Shown here one piece after another: positions 1 to 15,000 of a DNA stretch of 64,000 nucleotides. The position numbers were made by a program. How positions within the stretch are numbered: the stretch's first letter is position 1; every line of letters begins with the position of its first letter. Source of the stretch: Perna viridis (taxonomy: Eukaryota); the NCBI GenBank assembly GCA_037379345.1, contig CM074518.1:24428001-24492000 (forward strand). Direction: 5' to 3'.

Positions 1-3000
1 GTAGATATTTATGTTGCTTTAGTTAAAATATATGTTAAAATTAACTTTTAGAAGTTTAAATTAATAACCATGGGTCGTTTTATTTATGCATTCAGGTGGA
101 AAGCGATCTTACCCGACACTACATCTAATCTACTACGTAAAAGCTCATAAAAATAATAATGAAATACATAGCAGTTAAGTCGCTTTATTCAATATATTCA
201 ATTAACCAGTTTTTACTAAGGTTTCACTACTAATCTCTTTATAAATTTAATATTCATACACATGCGATGAACAAGATGGTACATACATCTTATATACAAC
301 AGTTTAATCTCCAAGTAGTAGTATTAGAATGGAAAATAGCAATAAGAGAACGCACCGTGTTTGGGTGTTGTTTTTCTTTTAGAAAAAAAAAACATGCACA
401 GAGTTCTACACTGTCACGCTTTAATGACGGATAATAAATCCTTGAATGTTTAGGGAGTACAGAATGTTAGTGTGACATATACGGTTCATTATGTAGAAAT
501 GGTTCGGGGATTTCATATCTTGTTGCCAATTGCCCGAAAAAGCAAAATATATCAGTATCACTGCTTTAATAGTTAGTTCGTTGCAAGTTTGGGTTTTTTA
601 TATATCTTGTTGGCTATGGTCGAACGTGGCACATTAAAATGCCTTGCTGCCTGGTAAGTATTCATCTTTCCTTCTCGAACACAATCGACAGCCCTCTGAA
701 GGTTTTCTTGGCTATACGAATACTTTTGGTAATATCGCCCTGTATTGGTTGGTTTGGTAAAGAACTGCAAGGCTTTGTTTCCTACAAGATATAACAGTGT
801 CTGCTCAGTGTTCAGAAACATTTCTTCAATAAAAAGGATGCAACATAAAAATTAAAAATAAGTCCAGAACATGTGAGCAGTACAACAACAAAATAATCCC
901 GCATTACACAATCCGGAAATACATTATGAGATACACTAGCTGGGTCAAGTTAAGTTATGGAAACAAATATTCAAATAAAAATGTGTTTACTGAGCAGCAA
1001 CAAAATCACAATACATTTGTCAAAAGACCGTAGATGTAATAAGTACTTCACGCAGTTCCAGTTCTCTGATCTGCATGATTGCAGAAAATATTGAGTTCGT
1101 TTGAAAAACACTTTGAAAGAGCTTTTTTCTTGTTGCCAGATTTCAAATATATATTCGCAAGAAAGAAAGGAGATCATATCCTTATGCTATGTTCCTTAAA
1201 TGTATAATTGGTTAAGACACGGTTAACTTAAAACATGTTGAAATTTTTATTGACAAAAAAAATGTTTCCAGGTATTACACCTATTTCATACAAAAATTAT
1301 TGCATATACAATGATTCAGAAACCAGATTACAACCAATGAAAATCAGAACTGAGAGTGTCCCAATTTAGGGACATATCCACTAGCAACATAAAACACAGT
1401 TAAAAATACATTACATCTCCCTTTGCTAAAATTCGGCTTCTTGTGCATCAACTTTCTCACAGAAATGCTGCAAAACCTTGACATATTGTTTCATCAAAAG
1501 CCATTAACCGATTAAGGGATAACTTCACAATGAATATGAATGAGTGAACTATGGGGTTCTTATATAAACCTCAACTTAGTTTGGCATGTGTACACTGGTG
1601 ATATATTCTAACATGAAACAAACATTATAAGCGTATTTTGTTTCGCAGATGACGTGGATACAGGCAATGGGTTTTCCAGTCGGATCAACGTTGACTCTGA
1701 TTCATCAGCAAATATTAATTGTTTATATTAATATGCACTAAATATTACAATAGGGTATGTAAGTCTCGTCATGTGACCCCGTGATTTCACGAAATTCAAT
1801 GGGTTTTAATCTACTATTCAAAAGCATAGAGATTTGTCATTTAGAGAGCGATGAGTTCAGTGTTATTGGCAAAAATCTTCCTGTGTAAAAAAAATACCGA
1901 TAAAATGACAAATAACTATTTCCACATGATAAATGTAGTAAGAAAAAAAAACAAACTTAAAGATTTTGCATTGTTATACGTTTCCAGTACCCGGAAGTAA
2001 ACAATAAAATCCAGGTCGGTCTTCGGTTTTCAATATGTTTTACATCGGAAATTCCGGTAAAGAAAATGAAACTAAAACGAGACTTACATACCCTACAGTC
2101 AAATATATTTCAAGTATATTCAATGTTGACATCAGCAAAATACACTTGAGACGTCGGAAATATAATCAACTTGCATTAAAGGTAACAGACGTTGACATTG
2201 ACGTAGTCGAGTGGGCTGCATCGCTTTAATGTTCATTGTAGAAATTATCTACTTTTAACATTTAGTCAAATGCACTAAAAACTTAAAGGTTCATTTTAGT
2301 AAAATTATCTTTAATCGGCAAATGCTGATATTAGTCAAATGACTAAAATTCTGTTCATACTTGACGGCGAACGTGCAAGTCAAATGAACAAATGAACAGC
2401 TCGGTTCAATACTGATATGCTTGTAAGATAAATCAATGCAATGTCGACAATCCACTTTAAGTATAATCATGTGCGTTACTACGATGAAATTGCACGTCAC
2501 TTCCGTTTAATGTAGACGCACATGTAAGCCATGAACACTATACTGTACGTATGCGTACATTAATATTACATTTTTTAATGTATAAGGAATGATTCAGCGT
2601 AAGTGTTGAAGATGCATGTTCTTTCTAACATATATTTTGTTGGAAATGGTCCCTCTAGGAACGTTGAAATATCTAGCAGCTTGATAAGTATTCATAACAC
2701 CAGCCCTTACTGCTTGGACTGCTCTTTGTAGGTTTTCCGGGTCATAGTGGTGTCTCTTTCGGTCTTTCTTTAGCACTGGCTTAGTTTGCAACTGTCCTGA
2801 AAAGTAGTTAAAACTTTTGATATCCAATGTCTTCGTATTACTTTTAGTGTTTATTTTACATAATACATGTAACACGACATTTGAAAGCACCAGTATATAG
2901 AAGTAGCAAGTGTTCAGGTGATAAAAAATGTCTCGGTATAATATCACCATTCGGAACAAACAATGCCGCACTTTTTATCCATTGAAATGGGAAAGTTAAC

Positions 3001-12000: not shown

Positions 12001-15000
12001 TAACCGACTTTCTACAACCTTTTCACGGACTTTCGATAGAAACAGGGGATTATAAACTGGACGCTAGTTGTTTAGAACTTACTTGTCGAGGCCAGGTTTA
12101 TTTAGTGGAGGTCGTATAACTGCTTCCTTAAATGCCTTCGGAATATACCATTCATGTAATGACTTGATCACTATTTTCTAGAGGTTATTATTGGTGCTAG
12201 GCTGTTTAAACACCGATTAAGTAACGAAGCTGGCAGCGGGTCGAGTTCACTAGATTTCGAACAAGCCTTTGAAATAATCTTCCGAATTTCATCAACAGAC
12301 GTAGGTGTTAAGACATAAAGTACATGACCGTCAAATATAATGTCCGCACAAAAGGCATCACTTCCGTTCGGAGAGGAATCATTTGCACTTGCAGTTGATA
12401 GATTTTTCCTGGTTTCAATCTTATTGAAGTAGAAGTCACCGAACGTATTCGACAGCAGATCTTTGTCACACTCATGAGATGGTAAAACTACGGTCTTCGG
12501 GTTATCCATTCATTTGTTTGTTAAATGGAACACTTTCTTTTGATCACATCTGACTTCCAACATTTTATTTAAAAAATAGTCAAGTCTTGTTTTTCAAAAG
12601 TAGCTTTTGTGTTTCTATCAATTGTTCCTTGTACAGATGTTTATGAACCTCGGACTTCGTCTTCCGCATTATACACTCTGCTTTACGGCGATCTGTTGTA
12701 GTGCTACGAGGCTGGGTTGAGTGCCATTCTGTATTCGTTATCGTTTATATTGAAGTGGAGCATGCTTCTCGATGATTGAACTAAGCACCGAGTTTTACGT
12801 TTAAACTACTTCGTCAAACGAAGCTGTATGGTTCGGCGTGATATTCGAACAACTGATGCCGGTTTCAAAATCGTGTTATGAATTATCACATATTCTTGTT
12901 TTTTGCTTTGGTCTTCGTGACCCAGTCATAAATGGTTGAACGTGGTATTCCAAATTTTTCTGCCGCTTTATATGAACTCAGTTTGCCCTGAATGACCATA
13001 TGGACCGCTTCCATGAGTGTTGCAGAATCGTAATACTGCTTCCTTCTATTAAACCTTGGAAGCAAATCTGAAACATGAATAACATAAGTTTTGTACTTCC
13101 GTCGAACAGAGCACCGATAAGTTCACATGTCAAACACAGCATTGATATTTACAGGTATCAAATACAGCATGATATTTGCACGCAAAGTCCATCAGTTTTA
13201 ATTGCAATAGTCAATCGGCTGATAAAATAAAATTCTAAAATTCTCGCAGTCCATTTGTGAAAACGATAGATGATTAAATCAAACACTGCTGCAGCAACAG
13301 CACGTATTTAAAACCATAACTATACATAAAAAATCGTAAAAGACCTAATATAACTCGTTTGTTCATCAAGAAAAATCATAGGGTTCAAACAGAGGTACAT
13401 TATAATAATTGGTCATTTCTATAATGACTACCAAAACAATACAATATTCTCTATCAAAGAGTTGCAAAATGCACCCCACGAAGGTTTCAATTCTATAAGT
13501 GAATATTATATTTCCAGTACATATAACAAGTAACACCTATTTGAGGACTTTTTTTTCTAGCTTTCACTGATAACTTTACATGTACTGTGGTATAGCAACC
13601 AATTTGTCACGATTTCTCAGCAAGATATTAAGACATAATGGAGAATGAACTTTTTGAATGCTGTCAACAATTGCAGCCTTGCAGGGATTAAGCATCCCAA
13701 CAGAGTTAACAGTTACATGTACTAGTTTACTACATGAAACGATACAATACCATTACACAAGCTGATCTGCCCGCAAAAAAAAACATTAGATGAATTTCCC
13801 TGAACATAAAACATTGAAACGATACACATACATTTTAGTACCAAACCTTTTACAATACCACTTTAAAATCAGTCTTCATGACGATTCTTTATAAAGAAGT
13901 AAAATAGGCTGCTAAAGTCCGGTTTCGTAGGTTTTACTCAGTGAAAAGGCAATAGTCATATAGATGACAGACCATATTTTGTCTTTATTCATTACTTTCT
14001 TATCTTGTATACATGCCTTTAGCTCACTTGTGGATCGTATATATATTCCACAGCACAGAAGAAGAGGAGTGGATGAGATGAGGATTTTCTCTTGTAGTCT
14101 AATCGGGCAAGCAATAATTTTAGTCCGAAAATTCACTTTTCTGGGCATCAAACTGGAGGCAAACGTCCTTGACTACCACTTGTATGTGGTTTAGTCATTA
14201 TTGCAAGGGTATCAGATTGATGGTAAACGTCTCAGATTTCTACTTGTGCATAAGAATATTTGCTAGAGAAGTTGTGTCATGTACATTTTGCCCACTACTA
14301 CATGTATAAATGTATGTAATTGCCTCTGTCATGACATTGTTCTATGAATTGTGATAGGCAAGAAGTTATAACTAACTTTAAATACTGCCATCTAATCTGG
14401 CATTTATTGAAGTCATTTCTAACACAAGACTACACAAATTTTCAATACAAGCTTAACAGACATAAGATAAAATAAGGCAGTAATCTTCCAATCAACTTCA
14501 ATAGGATTATTTCATTTTCAAATTAATTCTATCCAAGTCAAGTCAACCCACCCAAACTCTTCAAATGTAATCAAACTATTTCAGTTTTCAAATCAATCAT
14601 TTTCTTTTCATTTTCGGTATTTTATGGAATATTTCTATATGCCGTTTCCGTGGAGCTTTCAAGTTACTTCTACTAGTCATAATTGCTTAACCACCAGACA
14701 ACAGTTATCTTAAGGTACCAGAAATAAAGGCACTATTTAACATAATAATAAAGAATACTTCATGCTCTACCGTGGATTAATACAATACTGGTGTCAGTGA
14801 TATTCACAATAAAAAACAATATTCTGGGATTCTAATACTTGGTACTGTCCAGCAATGAGTTATTATAAGTAGTAGACAACAGTCATTAGACATGAATTGT
14901 GTAAATTTCATGATTTCTGTATTTTCATACCATGTAAGTTAATGTGGCTAAATTCTGATTACATGTATATAGTGTCATTTCTTCTAGGCTTTCCTGTTAT

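What the first reader, a model, noticed from the sequence alone, without database searches (positions are those of the whole stretch)
573..13067. Recognition helix is hypervariable across the exon array while the scaffold is conserved
Seen: residues after the conserved (F/Y)x(V/I)P turn differ: IPRSTIYDWV, VPKTTLLFHV, VPRRTISYRV, VPQQTIFSRL, VPRPTLRYRL, VPRMTVYRKA, VPRGTISNKI, VPRSTIANKI. The Y...(L/M)..A(V/I)..V/Y core and basic N-terminal arm persist. Inference: purifying selection on the fold with diversification of base-contacting positions, giving a DNA-specificity repertoire rather than decaying copies.
Basis: partly seen in the sequence, partly recalled or inferred. Interest (0 to 1): 0.7.

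Follow-up and report, generated by a model that had tools for sequence, protein, structure and literature searches.

The report
Mussel BTB gene with alternative HTH tails
A mussel transcription-factor gene carries one shared front end and at least eight interchangeable last exons, each encoding a different small DNA-binding domain whose DNA-reading helix is not unusually variable within the gene but is mostly kept between species.

Summary
A ninth, broken copy lies at 3773-3898. All nine pass Pfam HTH_psq. They lie downstream of three constitutive exons of a BTB gene (19808-23223). That gene is 95% identical in its BTB part to Mytilus californianus LOC127704711, whose RefSeq isoforms each carry one alternative C-terminal domain.

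All eight intact exons have a phase-1 acceptor matching the single phase-1 donor, their own stop, and no in-phase donor. They are therefore alternative terminal exons.

"Hypervariable recognition helix" is not supported. Helix 3 varies no more than helices 1 and 2 (1.57 vs 1.46 bits, p=0.37). Random sets of eight unrelated HTH_psq domains show the same contrast.

Synonymous sites are saturated (pS 0.63-0.99) while pN is 0.20-0.58. In nine exon-orthologue pairs grouped without using helix 3, helix 3 differs at 10 of 90 sites against 82 of 270 in the scaffold (p=2e-4).

Distinct DNA specificities remain untested. This is a lola-like architecture in a mollusc, with a non-TTK BTB domain and HTH_psq tails.

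The parts
23098..23223 (-). Coding part of constitutive exon 1. It runs from the ATG at 23223 to the donor AAG|gtaata after 23098, and encodes the first 42 residues, which form the N-terminal part of the BTB domain.
   Evidence: The ORF appears. The peptide is letter-for-letter the N-terminus of Mytilus isoforms P0004-P0008. On its own it is too short for a Pfam hit. An acceptor-like ttttcag lies 10 nt upstream of the ATG, so the exon start near 23233 is inferred.
21201..22447 (-). Constitutive exon 2. It encodes the rest of the BTB domain followed by a long S/P/Q-rich low-complexity linker. Acceptor ttttag|GC; phase-2 donor AG|gtaata.
   Evidence: Pfam BTB scores 39.7 bits, covering profile positions 25-107 in residues 1-81. 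Residues 1-130 are 95% identical to M. californianus LOC127704711 and M. trossulus LOC134685251.
19808..20121 (-). Constitutive exon 3, an acidic linker. It ends ...GPTS plus one G, with donor G|gtaggg (phase 1). This is the single donor that serves all the alternative terminal exons.
   Evidence: In 5 of 5 full-length Mytilus isoforms fetched, the residue after GPTS is D, E or G, all codons starting with G. P0009 reads into the intron (GPTSGRCLF). No Pfam family was found.
12886..13067 (-). Terminal exon e1: DLLPRFNRRKQYYDS...GIPRSTIYDWVTKTKAKNKNM, then TGA.
   Evidence: HTH_psq 41.2 bits. The top-scoring acceptor tgtttcag| is in phase 1. No in-phase donor.
10986..11170 (-). Terminal exon e2: GPNTMKQKVKRKQYSREQ...GVPKTTLLFHVKKFVKKEHDV, then TGA. 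A second phase-1 acceptor at 11221 is an alternative start.
   Evidence: HTH_psq 39.4 bits. Two phase-1 acceptor candidates, at 11221 and 11170. No in-phase donor.
9435..9889 (-). Terminal exon e3: ...SRRGKNKKTYSPND...GVPRRTISYRVKKAREK, followed by an 86-residue acidic tail, then TAA.
   Evidence: HTH_psq 34.2 bits. Acceptor tctttcag| in phase 1. Relatives P0132, P0133 and P0134 keep RRTISYRV.
7911..8107 (-). Terminal exon e4: GYRPVFPPRHGWNTRKKYDEDS...GVPQQTIFSRLKKIRSMNNQN, then TGA.
   Evidence: HTH_psq 48.0 bits. Acceptor aatttcag| in phase 1. AlphaFold2 model: mean pLDDT 88, helices at residues 19-31, 36-43 and 47-63. M. coruscus segment P0124 181-253 has an identical helix 3, with 13 of 30 scaffold differences.
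6572..6810 (-). Terminal exon e5: GIIVNLKNMPQTNRPRRYRKYDKET...GVPRPTLRYRLKKRLNK..., then TAA.
   Evidence: HTH_psq 37.1 bits. Acceptor ttttttcag| in phase 1. No in-phase donor.
3773..3898 (-). e6 (psi), a decayed copy: ...RKVLEQAVLVVLEDKMTSNKAAQYYDVSSRTVN, then TAG. It has lost Y21, P50 and R51. A stop falls inside helix 3. Its best acceptor-like site is out of phase.
   Evidence: HTH_psq 21.6 bits, barely above the cutoff, covering profile positions 5-32 only. The best acceptor-like site (3887) is in phase 2, and the tttcag acceptor just downstream of it is also out of phase: read from the phase-1 donor, either gives a stop after 7-8 codons. The M. coruscus model P0127 includes a related partial segment.
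3390..3595 (-). Terminal exon e7: DQITRKGDRSKGYKNYSSYD...NVPRMTVYRKAKKFRKF..., then TAG.
   Evidence: HTH_psq 26.7 bits. Acceptor cattgcag| in phase 1. Groups with M. coruscus P0127 130-186 (SH-aLRT 85).
2594..2796 (-). Terminal exon e8: GQLQTKPVLKKDRKRHHYDPEN...NVPRGTISNKIYVRKNMHLQHLR, then TGA.
   Evidence: HTH_psq 41.1 bits. Acceptor cttttcag| in phase 1. Relatives P0135, P0136 and P0127 174-235 keep PRGTISNKIY.
573..781 (-). Terminal exon e9: GNKALQFFTKPTNTGRYYQKYSYSQEN...NVPRSTIANKIYKKPKLATN, then TAA. It is the last copy before the edge of the window, so the array may continue beyond it.
   Evidence: HTH_psq 40.3 bits. Acceptor tcttgtag| in phase 1, with a weaker one at 739. Relatives P0137 and P0138 keep PRSTIANKIYKK.

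Best explanation
The region is the 3' half of one gene of a mytilid mussel. Three constitutive exons encode a BTB dimerisation domain and a long disordered linker. The last of them ends in a phase-1 donor. That donor is spliced to one of at least eight mutually exclusive terminal exons. Each terminal exon encodes a basic arm, one three-helix HTH_psq domain and its own stop codon.

The gene therefore makes a family of proteins with one common body and different DNA-binding tails. Lola, mod(mdg4) and fruitless do the same in insects.

Shown: the domain identities, the exon phases, the absence of onward donors, the orthology of the common exons to RefSeq loci that have single-tail isoforms, the old age of the duplications combined with strong protein-level constraint, and the conservation of each exon's own helix 3 in related sequences.

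Inferred: that every exon is actually used in this species; that helix 3 and the arm contact DNA as they do in homeodomain-like folds; and that the fixed differences at helix-3 positions 52, 55 and 56 give different target preferences. BTB-mediated pairing of isoforms would multiply those preferences.

The helix is not hypervariable. It is as diverged among paralogues as any exposed face of the domain. In four of the five exons with relatives it is the slowest-changing part between species.
For: - Domains: 9 of 9 copies are HTH_psq above the cutoff, and BTB lies upstream on the same strand. None of 96 other minus-strand ORFs in 1-19800 has any Pfam family.
- Common exons: 95% identical in the BTB part to Mytilus LOC127704711 and LOC134685251. 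Their isoforms share everything up to GPTS and then carry one HTH_psq or one C2H2 tail.
- Donor: G|gtaggg in phase 1.
- Acceptors: in 8 of 8 intact exons the best open acceptor-like site is in phase 1. The chance expectation is (1/3)^8 = 1.5e-4.
- Onward donors: 0 of 8 exons has an in-phase donor as good as the constitutive ones.
- Selection: pN < pS in 28 of 28 pairs, with pS saturated.
- Orthologue grouping: a tree built without the helix-3 columns pairs e1, e3, e4, e7, e8 and e9 with external sequences (SH-aLRT 80-99).
- Helix 3 between species: over 9 pairs, helix 3 differs at 10 of 90 sites against 82 of 270 in the scaffold (p = 2.4e-4). With one pair per exon the counts are 8 of 50 against 55 of 150 (p = 0.008).
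- Structure: the AF2 model is a three-helix bundle with pLDDT 88. The nearest solved structure is the LCoR HTH, 2cob.
Against: - No transcript evidence from this species was available. P0009, a transcript-like record of a relative, runs into the intron after exon 3 rather than into a tail.
- The Mytilus isoforms are RefSeq 'isoform X' entries. I recall that these are automated model predictions; no call showed that.
- The e1-P0139 pair goes against the trend: helix 3 differs at 6 of 10 sites against 15 of 30 in the scaffold.
- e8 and e9 differ at only 3 of 10 helix-3 positions, so not every tail need have its own specificity.
- The external relatives come from unnamed contigs. Their species and their orthology, as opposed to paralogy, are inferred from a 38-column tree in which only 1 of 26 inner branches reaches 95 and 16 fall below 80.
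- The word-indexed search that found those relatives favours sequences that share exact 5-mers.
- The pairs within one exon group are not independent.
- Poly(A)-signal hexamers follow every exon. I estimate, without a control run, that chance would give about as many in 33% GC DNA, so they are not counted as evidence.
- No DNA complex of an HTH_psq domain was found, so base contacts rest on analogy.
Confidence: 0.75

Rival explanations
1. The copies are consecutive internal exons of one multi-repeat protein, like the four tandem Psq repeats of Drosophila Pipsqueak. On this view they are not alternatives.
For: Two M. coruscus gene models chain six and five such segments into single proteins (P0124 and P0127). 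Proteins with 4-9 HTH_psq stretches are common among the best 150 profile hits. Some of them also carry a BTB domain (P0160, P0162).
Against: Every copy is followed by an in-frame stop: 4 to 20 codons after alignment column 60 in seven exons, and about 90 codons after it in e3. None of the 8 exons has an in-phase donor of constitutive quality. The M. coruscus models get past the stops only by cutting domains short, for example ending one at VPRV and another at GHFLQK. The Mytilus RefSeq isoforms fetched have exactly one tail each (5 of 5).
Confidence: 0.07
2. The copies are relics of pogo/Tigger-type transposase N-termini scattered in an intron or 3' region, and are decaying neutrally.
For: HTH_psq is the DNA-binding domain of pogo-like transposases: P0126 is an HTH_psq plus DDE_1 protein, and a passage in PMC10027918 says the family derives from pogo. 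One copy, e6, is clearly broken. Long ORFs of no Pfam family, which I read from memory as retroelement fragments, lie nearby.
Against: No DDE or other transposase domain lies next to any copy. All nine copies are on one strand. Eight are open, with phase-1 acceptors. Synonymous sites are saturated while pN is 0.20-0.58. Related sequences elsewhere keep each copy's own helix 3.
Confidence: 0.03
3. The tails are real alternative exons but functionally redundant. They share one DNA preference, or bind DNA non-specifically, or bind protein. On this view the helix-3 differences are old neutral divergence that is now constrained only for folding.
For: Helix 3 is no more diverged than the other surfaces. 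Positions 51, 53, 54, 59 and 60 (R, T, I/L, K, K) are nearly constant across the array. e8 and e9 are almost identical in helix 3. Binding was not tested.
Against: The exposed, paralogue-variable positions of helix 3 are the ones best kept between species: 4 of 45 differ, against 61 of 144 for the equally exposed positions of helices 1-2. Folding constraint alone does not predict that.
Confidence: 0.15

Closest known systems
Drosophila lola (longitudinals lacking)
   Same: A BTB domain in the common 5' exons is joined to one of many alternative 3' exons, each encoding a different DNA-binding domain. The passage seen in PMC11426971 says 17 of lola's 20 isoforms carry different C-terminal C2H2 fingers.
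   Different: The BTB domain here lacks the TTK-type FxLRWN motif (read). A passage in PMC11426971 reports that no such motif was found in Mollusca. The tails here are HTH_psq, not zinc fingers. All exons lie on one strand. Trans-splicing is neither needed nor tested.
Drosophila mod(mdg4)
   Same: More than 30 isoforms are made from common BTB exons plus one alternative 3' exon (abstracts of PMC13490949 and PMC6237743, seen in the listing).
   Different: According to those abstracts, mod(mdg4) isoforms are made by trans-splicing from separate promoters. A passage in PMC11426971 says that several BTB transcription factors carry FLYWCH domains; that mod(mdg4) tails are FLYWCH is my recollection. 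Here simple cis-splicing to same-strand exons is enough, and the tails are HTH_psq.
Drosophila Pipsqueak and the BTB-Psq group (Psq, Bab)
   Same: The combination of a BTB domain with the HTH_psq DNA-binding domain (Introduction passages of PMC11426971).
   Different: I recall that Psq carries its repeats in tandem within one polypeptide; among the profile hits, P0160 and P0162 show BTB plus four stretches. Here each protein would carry a single HTH chosen from an array. The BTB subtype also differs.
HTH domain of human LCoR (PDB 2cob), and E93-like domains
   Same: It is the closest solved structure by sequence (E = 8e-12) and by fold (Foldseek probability 1.00, E = 9e-3). It shares the basic arm, Y, LxxAV and GxPxSTL layout.
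   Different: Its helix 3 reads HSTLEYKVKE and it is not part of a BTB protein. Calling the many similar hits 'E93-like' is my recollection, not a tool result.
Mytilus californianus LOC127704711 and M. trossulus LOC134685251 (RefSeq)
   Same: These are the orthologous loci. Exon 1 is identical, the BTB part is 95% identical, and the junction after GPTS is the same. Their isoforms carry HTH_psq tails.
   Different: None of the four Mytilus HTH tails fetched from these two loci is the counterpart of a window exon. The M. californianus locus also has a C2H2 tail (P0006), and none was seen in this window.

Membership tests
HTH_psq (Pfam PF05225) | Score above the Pfam gathering cutoff | tested here: met
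   9 of 9 copies score 21.6-48.0 bits against a cutoff of 20.4. The weakest is the broken copy e6.
HTH_psq (Pfam PF05225) | Three-helix homeodomain-like bundle preceded by a basic arm | tested here: met
   The AF2 model of e4 has pLDDT 88 and helices at 19-31, 36-43 and 47-63. The top fold match is the LCoR HTH, 2cob. The arm has 2-5 K/R in 8 residues in 8 of 8 exons. Only one exon was modelled.
HTH_psq (Pfam PF05225) | Sequence-specific DNA binding through helix 3 | not testable with these tools
   No DNA complex of this family appeared. Homeodomain-DNA complexes align only at TM about 0.5 and E > 0.1.
BTB loci with arrays of alternative DNA-binding 3' exons (lola / mod(mdg4) kind) | BTB domain encoded by common 5' exons | tested here: met
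   BTB scores 39.7 bits in exon 2. Exon 1 is identical to the N-terminus of Mytilus BTB proteins.
BTB loci with arrays of alternative DNA-binding 3' exons (lola / mod(mdg4) kind) | Several terminal exons, each with a DNA-binding domain, its own stop and an acceptor in the phase of one shared donor | tested here: met
   8 of 8 intact exons have a phase-1 acceptor and the donor is in phase 1. 0 of 8 has an onward in-phase donor.
BTB loci with arrays of alternative DNA-binding 3' exons (lola / mod(mdg4) kind) | Transcripts that join the common exons to each tail | not testable with these tools
   No transcript data exist for this species. The evidence is indirect: RefSeq isoforms of two Mytilus species have single tails.
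Arthropod TTK-group BTB proteins | [quoted passage not shown] | tested here: not met
   Exon 1 and the start of exon 2 contain no such motif (MNYQKVYMNHIHSSSLLCQLAQMWRSQLLCDALIC...). PMC11426971 (Bioinformatics passage) found none in Mollusca.
Tandem multi-Psq proteins (Pipsqueak type) | Repeats contiguous within one reading frame or mRNA | tested here: not met
   There is a stop after every copy and no in-phase donor.
pogo/Tigger transposase | HTH_psq followed by a DDE_1 catalytic domain | tested here: not met
   No DDE domain was found among the 159 window ORFs scanned (63 and 96). P0126 shows what the complete form looks like.

The most novel reading that the evidence does not exclude
Mussels independently evolved a lola-like gene with one BTB body and many DNA-binding tails. 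It is built on a non-TTK BTB domain. In Mytilus californianus it mixes two unrelated DNA-binding classes, HTH_psq and C2H2, at one locus. Each tail's recognition helix has been frozen since an ancient burst of exon duplication. BTB pairing between isoforms would then give a combinatorial set of DNA specificities. That would be a transcription-factor diversification strategy so far described only in arthropods.
Probability: 0.45. Interest if true: 0.65.

Novelty: new variant of a known kind. Interest (0 to 1): 0.5.

Why it matters
BTB genes that swap DNA-binding tails by alternative 3' exons are textbook cases in Drosophila. There they are tied to the arthropod-specific TTK type of BTB domain.

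A mollusc locus with the same logic, but another BTB subtype and another DNA-binding fold, would show that this architecture arose more than once. It would also offer a natural series of single-domain variants for working out how the poorly studied HTH_psq fold reads DNA.

Five full-text searches found no description of such loci in molluscs. PMC12111275 (passage seen) states that there was no publication on oyster BTB genes. The loci do exist as RefSeq 'isoform X' entries, so the raw fact is already in databases.

For the scan itself there is a lesson. A conserved core set against a variable helix face is the ordinary look of any HTH family. Calling it hypervariable needs a control.

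Tried and rejected
- **'Longer' homologue search.** The search with the array profile returned only 3 proteins among 8000 scored candidates. It is no evidence about distribution.
- **Codon-level dN/dS.** Only in-window paralogue comparisons were made, and dS is saturated there (21 of 28 pairs undefined).
- **Family baseline.** The first version (476 domains) was dominated by near-identical LCoR-like domains. It was replaced by 97 domains below 50% identity. That baseline still comes from the best 150 hits to the array's own profile.
- **First orthologue groups.** The first count used groups I had picked partly by eye from helix 3. 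It was redone with groups taken from a tree that excludes helix 3, which added the contrary e1-P0139 pair.
- **Column 52 (PR-x-T).** It is more variable in the array than in family subsamples: 2.75 against 1.85 bits, and 3.5% of subsamples reach the array's value. That does not survive correction over 40 columns.
- **Poly(A) hexamers.** They follow every exon, but I judge them uninformative in AT-rich DNA.
- **Pfam on exons 1 and 3 alone.** It found nothing.
- **Two long ORFs at 55-59 kb.** They are unrelated to each other.
- **Spliced model.** The joined model was never searched or folded; all searches were made exon by exon.
- **Supplements.** The supplementary trees of PMC10027918, which might list bivalve HTH-Psq genes, could not be seen.

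Full report
**What is there**

The window has 33% GC, no N, and long introns. On the minus strand between 573 and 13122 lie nine open frames with the motif Y..(L/M)..A(V/I)..V...G.......AA..(F/Y)(G/N)(V/I)P.xT(I/L/V).

A profile built from the copies finds exactly these nine among the 1130 six-frame ORFs of 30 aa or more. Their E-values are at most 2e-15, and the next best is 0.83. All nine exceed the Pfam HTH_psq gathering score (21.6-48.0 bits against 20.4). None of 96 other minus-strand ORFs of 35 aa or more in 1-19800 matches any Pfam family. No C2H2 pattern was found there either.

**The gene they belong to**

Upstream on the same strand, ORF 21200-22447 carries a BTB domain (39.7 bits, profile positions 25-107). 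The missing start of the domain lies in a 42-codon exon that begins with the ATG at 23223.

I searched exon by exon. The spliced model was never joined for a search or a fold. Residues 1-130 of exon 2 are 95% identical to Mytilus californianus LOC127704711 and M. trossulus LOC134685251. Of 247 candidates, 182 had E <= 1e-3, and the best 120 are almost all bivalve BTB proteins annotated with up to 37 'isoform X' entries. Their C-terminal domains vary: HTH_psq, C2H2, PF13842 and PF10523.

The five full-length Mytilus isoforms I fetched are identical within each species up to ...GPTS. They then diverge into one HTH_psq tail (four isoforms) or one C2H2 tail (one isoform). The first divergent residue is always D, E or G. 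In the window, exon 3 ends TCA G|gtaggg, which is a phase-1 donor that supplies the G. The organism is therefore a mytilid mussel, not human, and the array lies downstream of the last common exon.

**Alternative terminal exons, not a repeat protein**

For each of the eight intact copies, the best acceptor-like site that stays open as far as the conserved Y is in phase 1. Examples are tgtttcag| at 13067 and cttttcag| at 2796. With random phase, eight out of eight has probability 1.5e-4.

Every copy runs into a stop soon after helix 3. None has an in-phase donor matching the consensus as well as the three constitutive donors do (0 of 8).

Two M. coruscus gene models (P0124 and P0127) do chain six and five such segments. 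They manage this only by truncating domains in the middle, so I read them as annotation artefacts. Poly(A)-type hexamers follow every exon, but I judge them uninformative in DNA this AT-rich.

**The ninth copy**

The copy at 3773-3898 has lost Y21, P50 and R51. It has a TAG inside helix 3. Its acceptor-like sites are out of phase, and reading from the phase-1 donor gives a stop within a few codons. It is a decaying pseudo-exon, and it shows what decay looks like at this locus.

**Is the recognition helix hypervariable?**

An AlphaFold2 model of exon e4 (18-row alignment, mean pLDDT 88) places the helices at residues 19-31, 36-43 and 47-63. The nearest solved structure is the LCoR HTH, 2cob, both by sequence (E = 8e-12) and by fold (E = 9e-3). 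Homeodomain-DNA complexes follow at TM about 0.5, and none reaches E <= 1e-3.

With helix 3 taken as alignment columns 51-60, mean entropy across the eight intact exons is:

| Region | Mean entropy (bits) | Mean pairwise identity |
|---|---|---|
| Helix 1 | 1.43 | 0.41 |
| Helix 2 plus turn | 1.48 | 0.39 |
| Helix 3 | 1.57 | 0.36 |

The permutation test gives p = 0.37.

For a family baseline I searched 1.84 billion representatives with the array profile: 5481 proteins had E <= 1e-3, and the best 150 were returned. I extracted 476 domains from 148 proteins and kept 97 with less than 50% identity to one another. In 2000 random sets of eight of these, helix 3 minus scaffold is 0.10 +/- 0.14 bits. 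The array gives 0.11, and 49% of random sets reach it. Per-column entropies of the array and the family correlate at rho = 0.78.

Only column 52, the x of PR-x-T, is unusually varied: seven different residues in eight exons, a level reached by 3.5% of subsamples. That does not survive correction for 40 columns.

**Is the variation functional?**

Two lines of evidence say that it is constrained.

First, within the window, Nei-Gojobori counts over the 40 core codons give pS 0.63-0.99. In 21 of 28 pairs dS is too saturated to compute. pN is 0.20-0.58, and pN is below pS in all 28 pairs. For e8/e9, pS is 0.90 against pN 0.20. The duplications are old and the proteins have been maintained.

Second, a near-length search with the array profile returned 18 short proteins. 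Some are the window's own ORFs or near-identical ones (P0128-P0131, P0140). The others are diverged relatives on unnamed contigs.

A maximum-likelihood tree built only from columns 13-50, so without helix 3, gives these groups (SH-aLRT in brackets):

- e3 with P0132 (99), and with P0133 and P0134 (88)
- e4 with M. coruscus P0124 181-253 (84)
- e7 with P0127 130-186 (85)
- e1 with P0139 (90)
- e8 with P0135, P0136 and P0127 174-235, in an unresolved clade that also holds e9 (80)
- e9 with P0137 and P0138 (81)

The tree has only 38 columns, and 16 of its 26 inner branches are weak.

Helix 3 can be read in nine exon-relative pairs. Across them it differs at 10 of 90 positions, against 82 of 270 in helices 1-2 (Fisher p = 2.4e-4). 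At the columns that vary among paralogues the counts are 4 of 45 against 61 of 144 (p = 2e-5). With one pair per exon they are 8 of 50 against 55 of 150 (p = 0.008).

The clearest case is e4. VPQQTIFSRLKK is identical in M. coruscus, while 13 of 30 scaffold positions differ.

The exception is e1-P0139, where helix 3 differs at 6 of 10 positions. That pair may be paralogous, or e1 may have diverged.

Caveats:

- The relatives' species are unknown.
- Pairs within one group are not independent.
- The word-indexed search favours conserved 5-mers.

**How it most likely works**

The gene makes BTB proteins that differ only in a C-terminal module of basic arm plus HTH_psq, chosen by splicing the phase-1 donor at 19808 to one of eight or more terminal exons.

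By analogy with homeodomain-like folds, helix 3 would lie in the major groove and the arm in the minor groove. This part is inferred and not shown here. The positions that differ between tails yet are frozen between species (52, 55, 56, and partly 57-58) are the natural candidates for base contacts. The shared R51, T53, I/L54 and K59-K60 would provide common backbone or scaffold contacts.

BTB dimerisation between isoforms would combine specificities; this too is inferred. e8 and e9 differ at only three of ten helix-3 positions and may be partly redundant.

**Comparison with what is known**

The logic matches lola, where 17 of 20 isoforms carry different C2H2 tails (passage in PMC11426971). 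It also matches mod(mdg4), with more than 30 isoforms made by trans-splicing (abstracts of PMC13490949 and PMC6237743).

There are differences. The BTB domain here lacks the TTK FxLRWN motif, which PMC11426971 reports as absent from Mollusca (passage). The tails are HTH_psq. All exons share one strand.

BTB plus Psq is known from Pipsqueak and Bab, but I recall that there the repeats sit within one chain. Passages seen in PMC10027918 describe HTH-Psq expansions in molluscs as species-specific gene families and make no mention of exon arrays; its supplements could not be read. PMC12111275 (passages) describes oyster BTB gene clusters and says nothing had been published on oyster BTB genes.

Five full-text searches found no account of such a locus in molluscs. 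The isoforms are nevertheless present in RefSeq.

**Verdict**

- The label 'hypervariable' fails its controls.
- The inference of purifying selection on non-decaying copies holds for eight of the nine.
- Different DNA specificities are plausible but untested.

I rate it a new variant of a known kind, of moderate interest.

Noticed in passing
window 36590-38650 (+): A single uninterrupted 687-codon ORF encodes a complete SLC26-type sulfate permease: Sulfate_transp at 313.6 bits plus STAS at 59.2 bits. An intronless copy in an otherwise intron-rich region might be a retrogene.
   Followed up: no
window 8506-8854: A 38-bp unit is repeated 9.1 times in tandem (76% matches) in the intron between terminal exons e3 and e4. 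It produces the odd repetitive ORFs at 8541-8783.
   Followed up: no
window 32593-33457 (+) and 12174-12509 (-): Long ORFs of 209, 92 and 112 aa have no Pfam family. From memory I read their sequences as fragments of non-LTR retroelements. One of them sits between terminal exons e1 and e2.
   Followed up: no
window 55293-61576 (-): Four long minus-strand ORFs (302, 219, 301 and 209 aa) have no Pfam family. The only hint is a sub-threshold 7TM_GPCR_Srj match for the last one (E = 0.0064). The 302-aa and 301-aa ORFs are unrelated to each other.
   Followed up: partly
P0124 and P0127 (Mytilus coruscus 'unnamed protein product', same 5.8-Mb contig): Two public gene models concatenate six and five alternative HTH_psq exons into single proteins by cutting domains short. 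They are probably annotation artefacts of the orthologous array. The order of the segments in P0127 matching e6, e7 and e8 is the same as in the window.
   Followed up: partly
P0006 (M. californianus isoform X9): The orthologous Mytilus locus also has a C2H2 zinc-finger tail after the same GPTS junction, so one locus mixes two DNA-binding classes. No zinc-finger exon lies in window 1-19800. It may lie beyond the window's left edge.
   Followed up: partly
P0131 (the database's ORF for window exon e2): The stored ORF reads on past the TGA stop of e2 (...EHDVW...). This suggests the ORF caller used a code in which TGA is read as W. It is an artefact of the collection, not of the gene.
   Followed up: no
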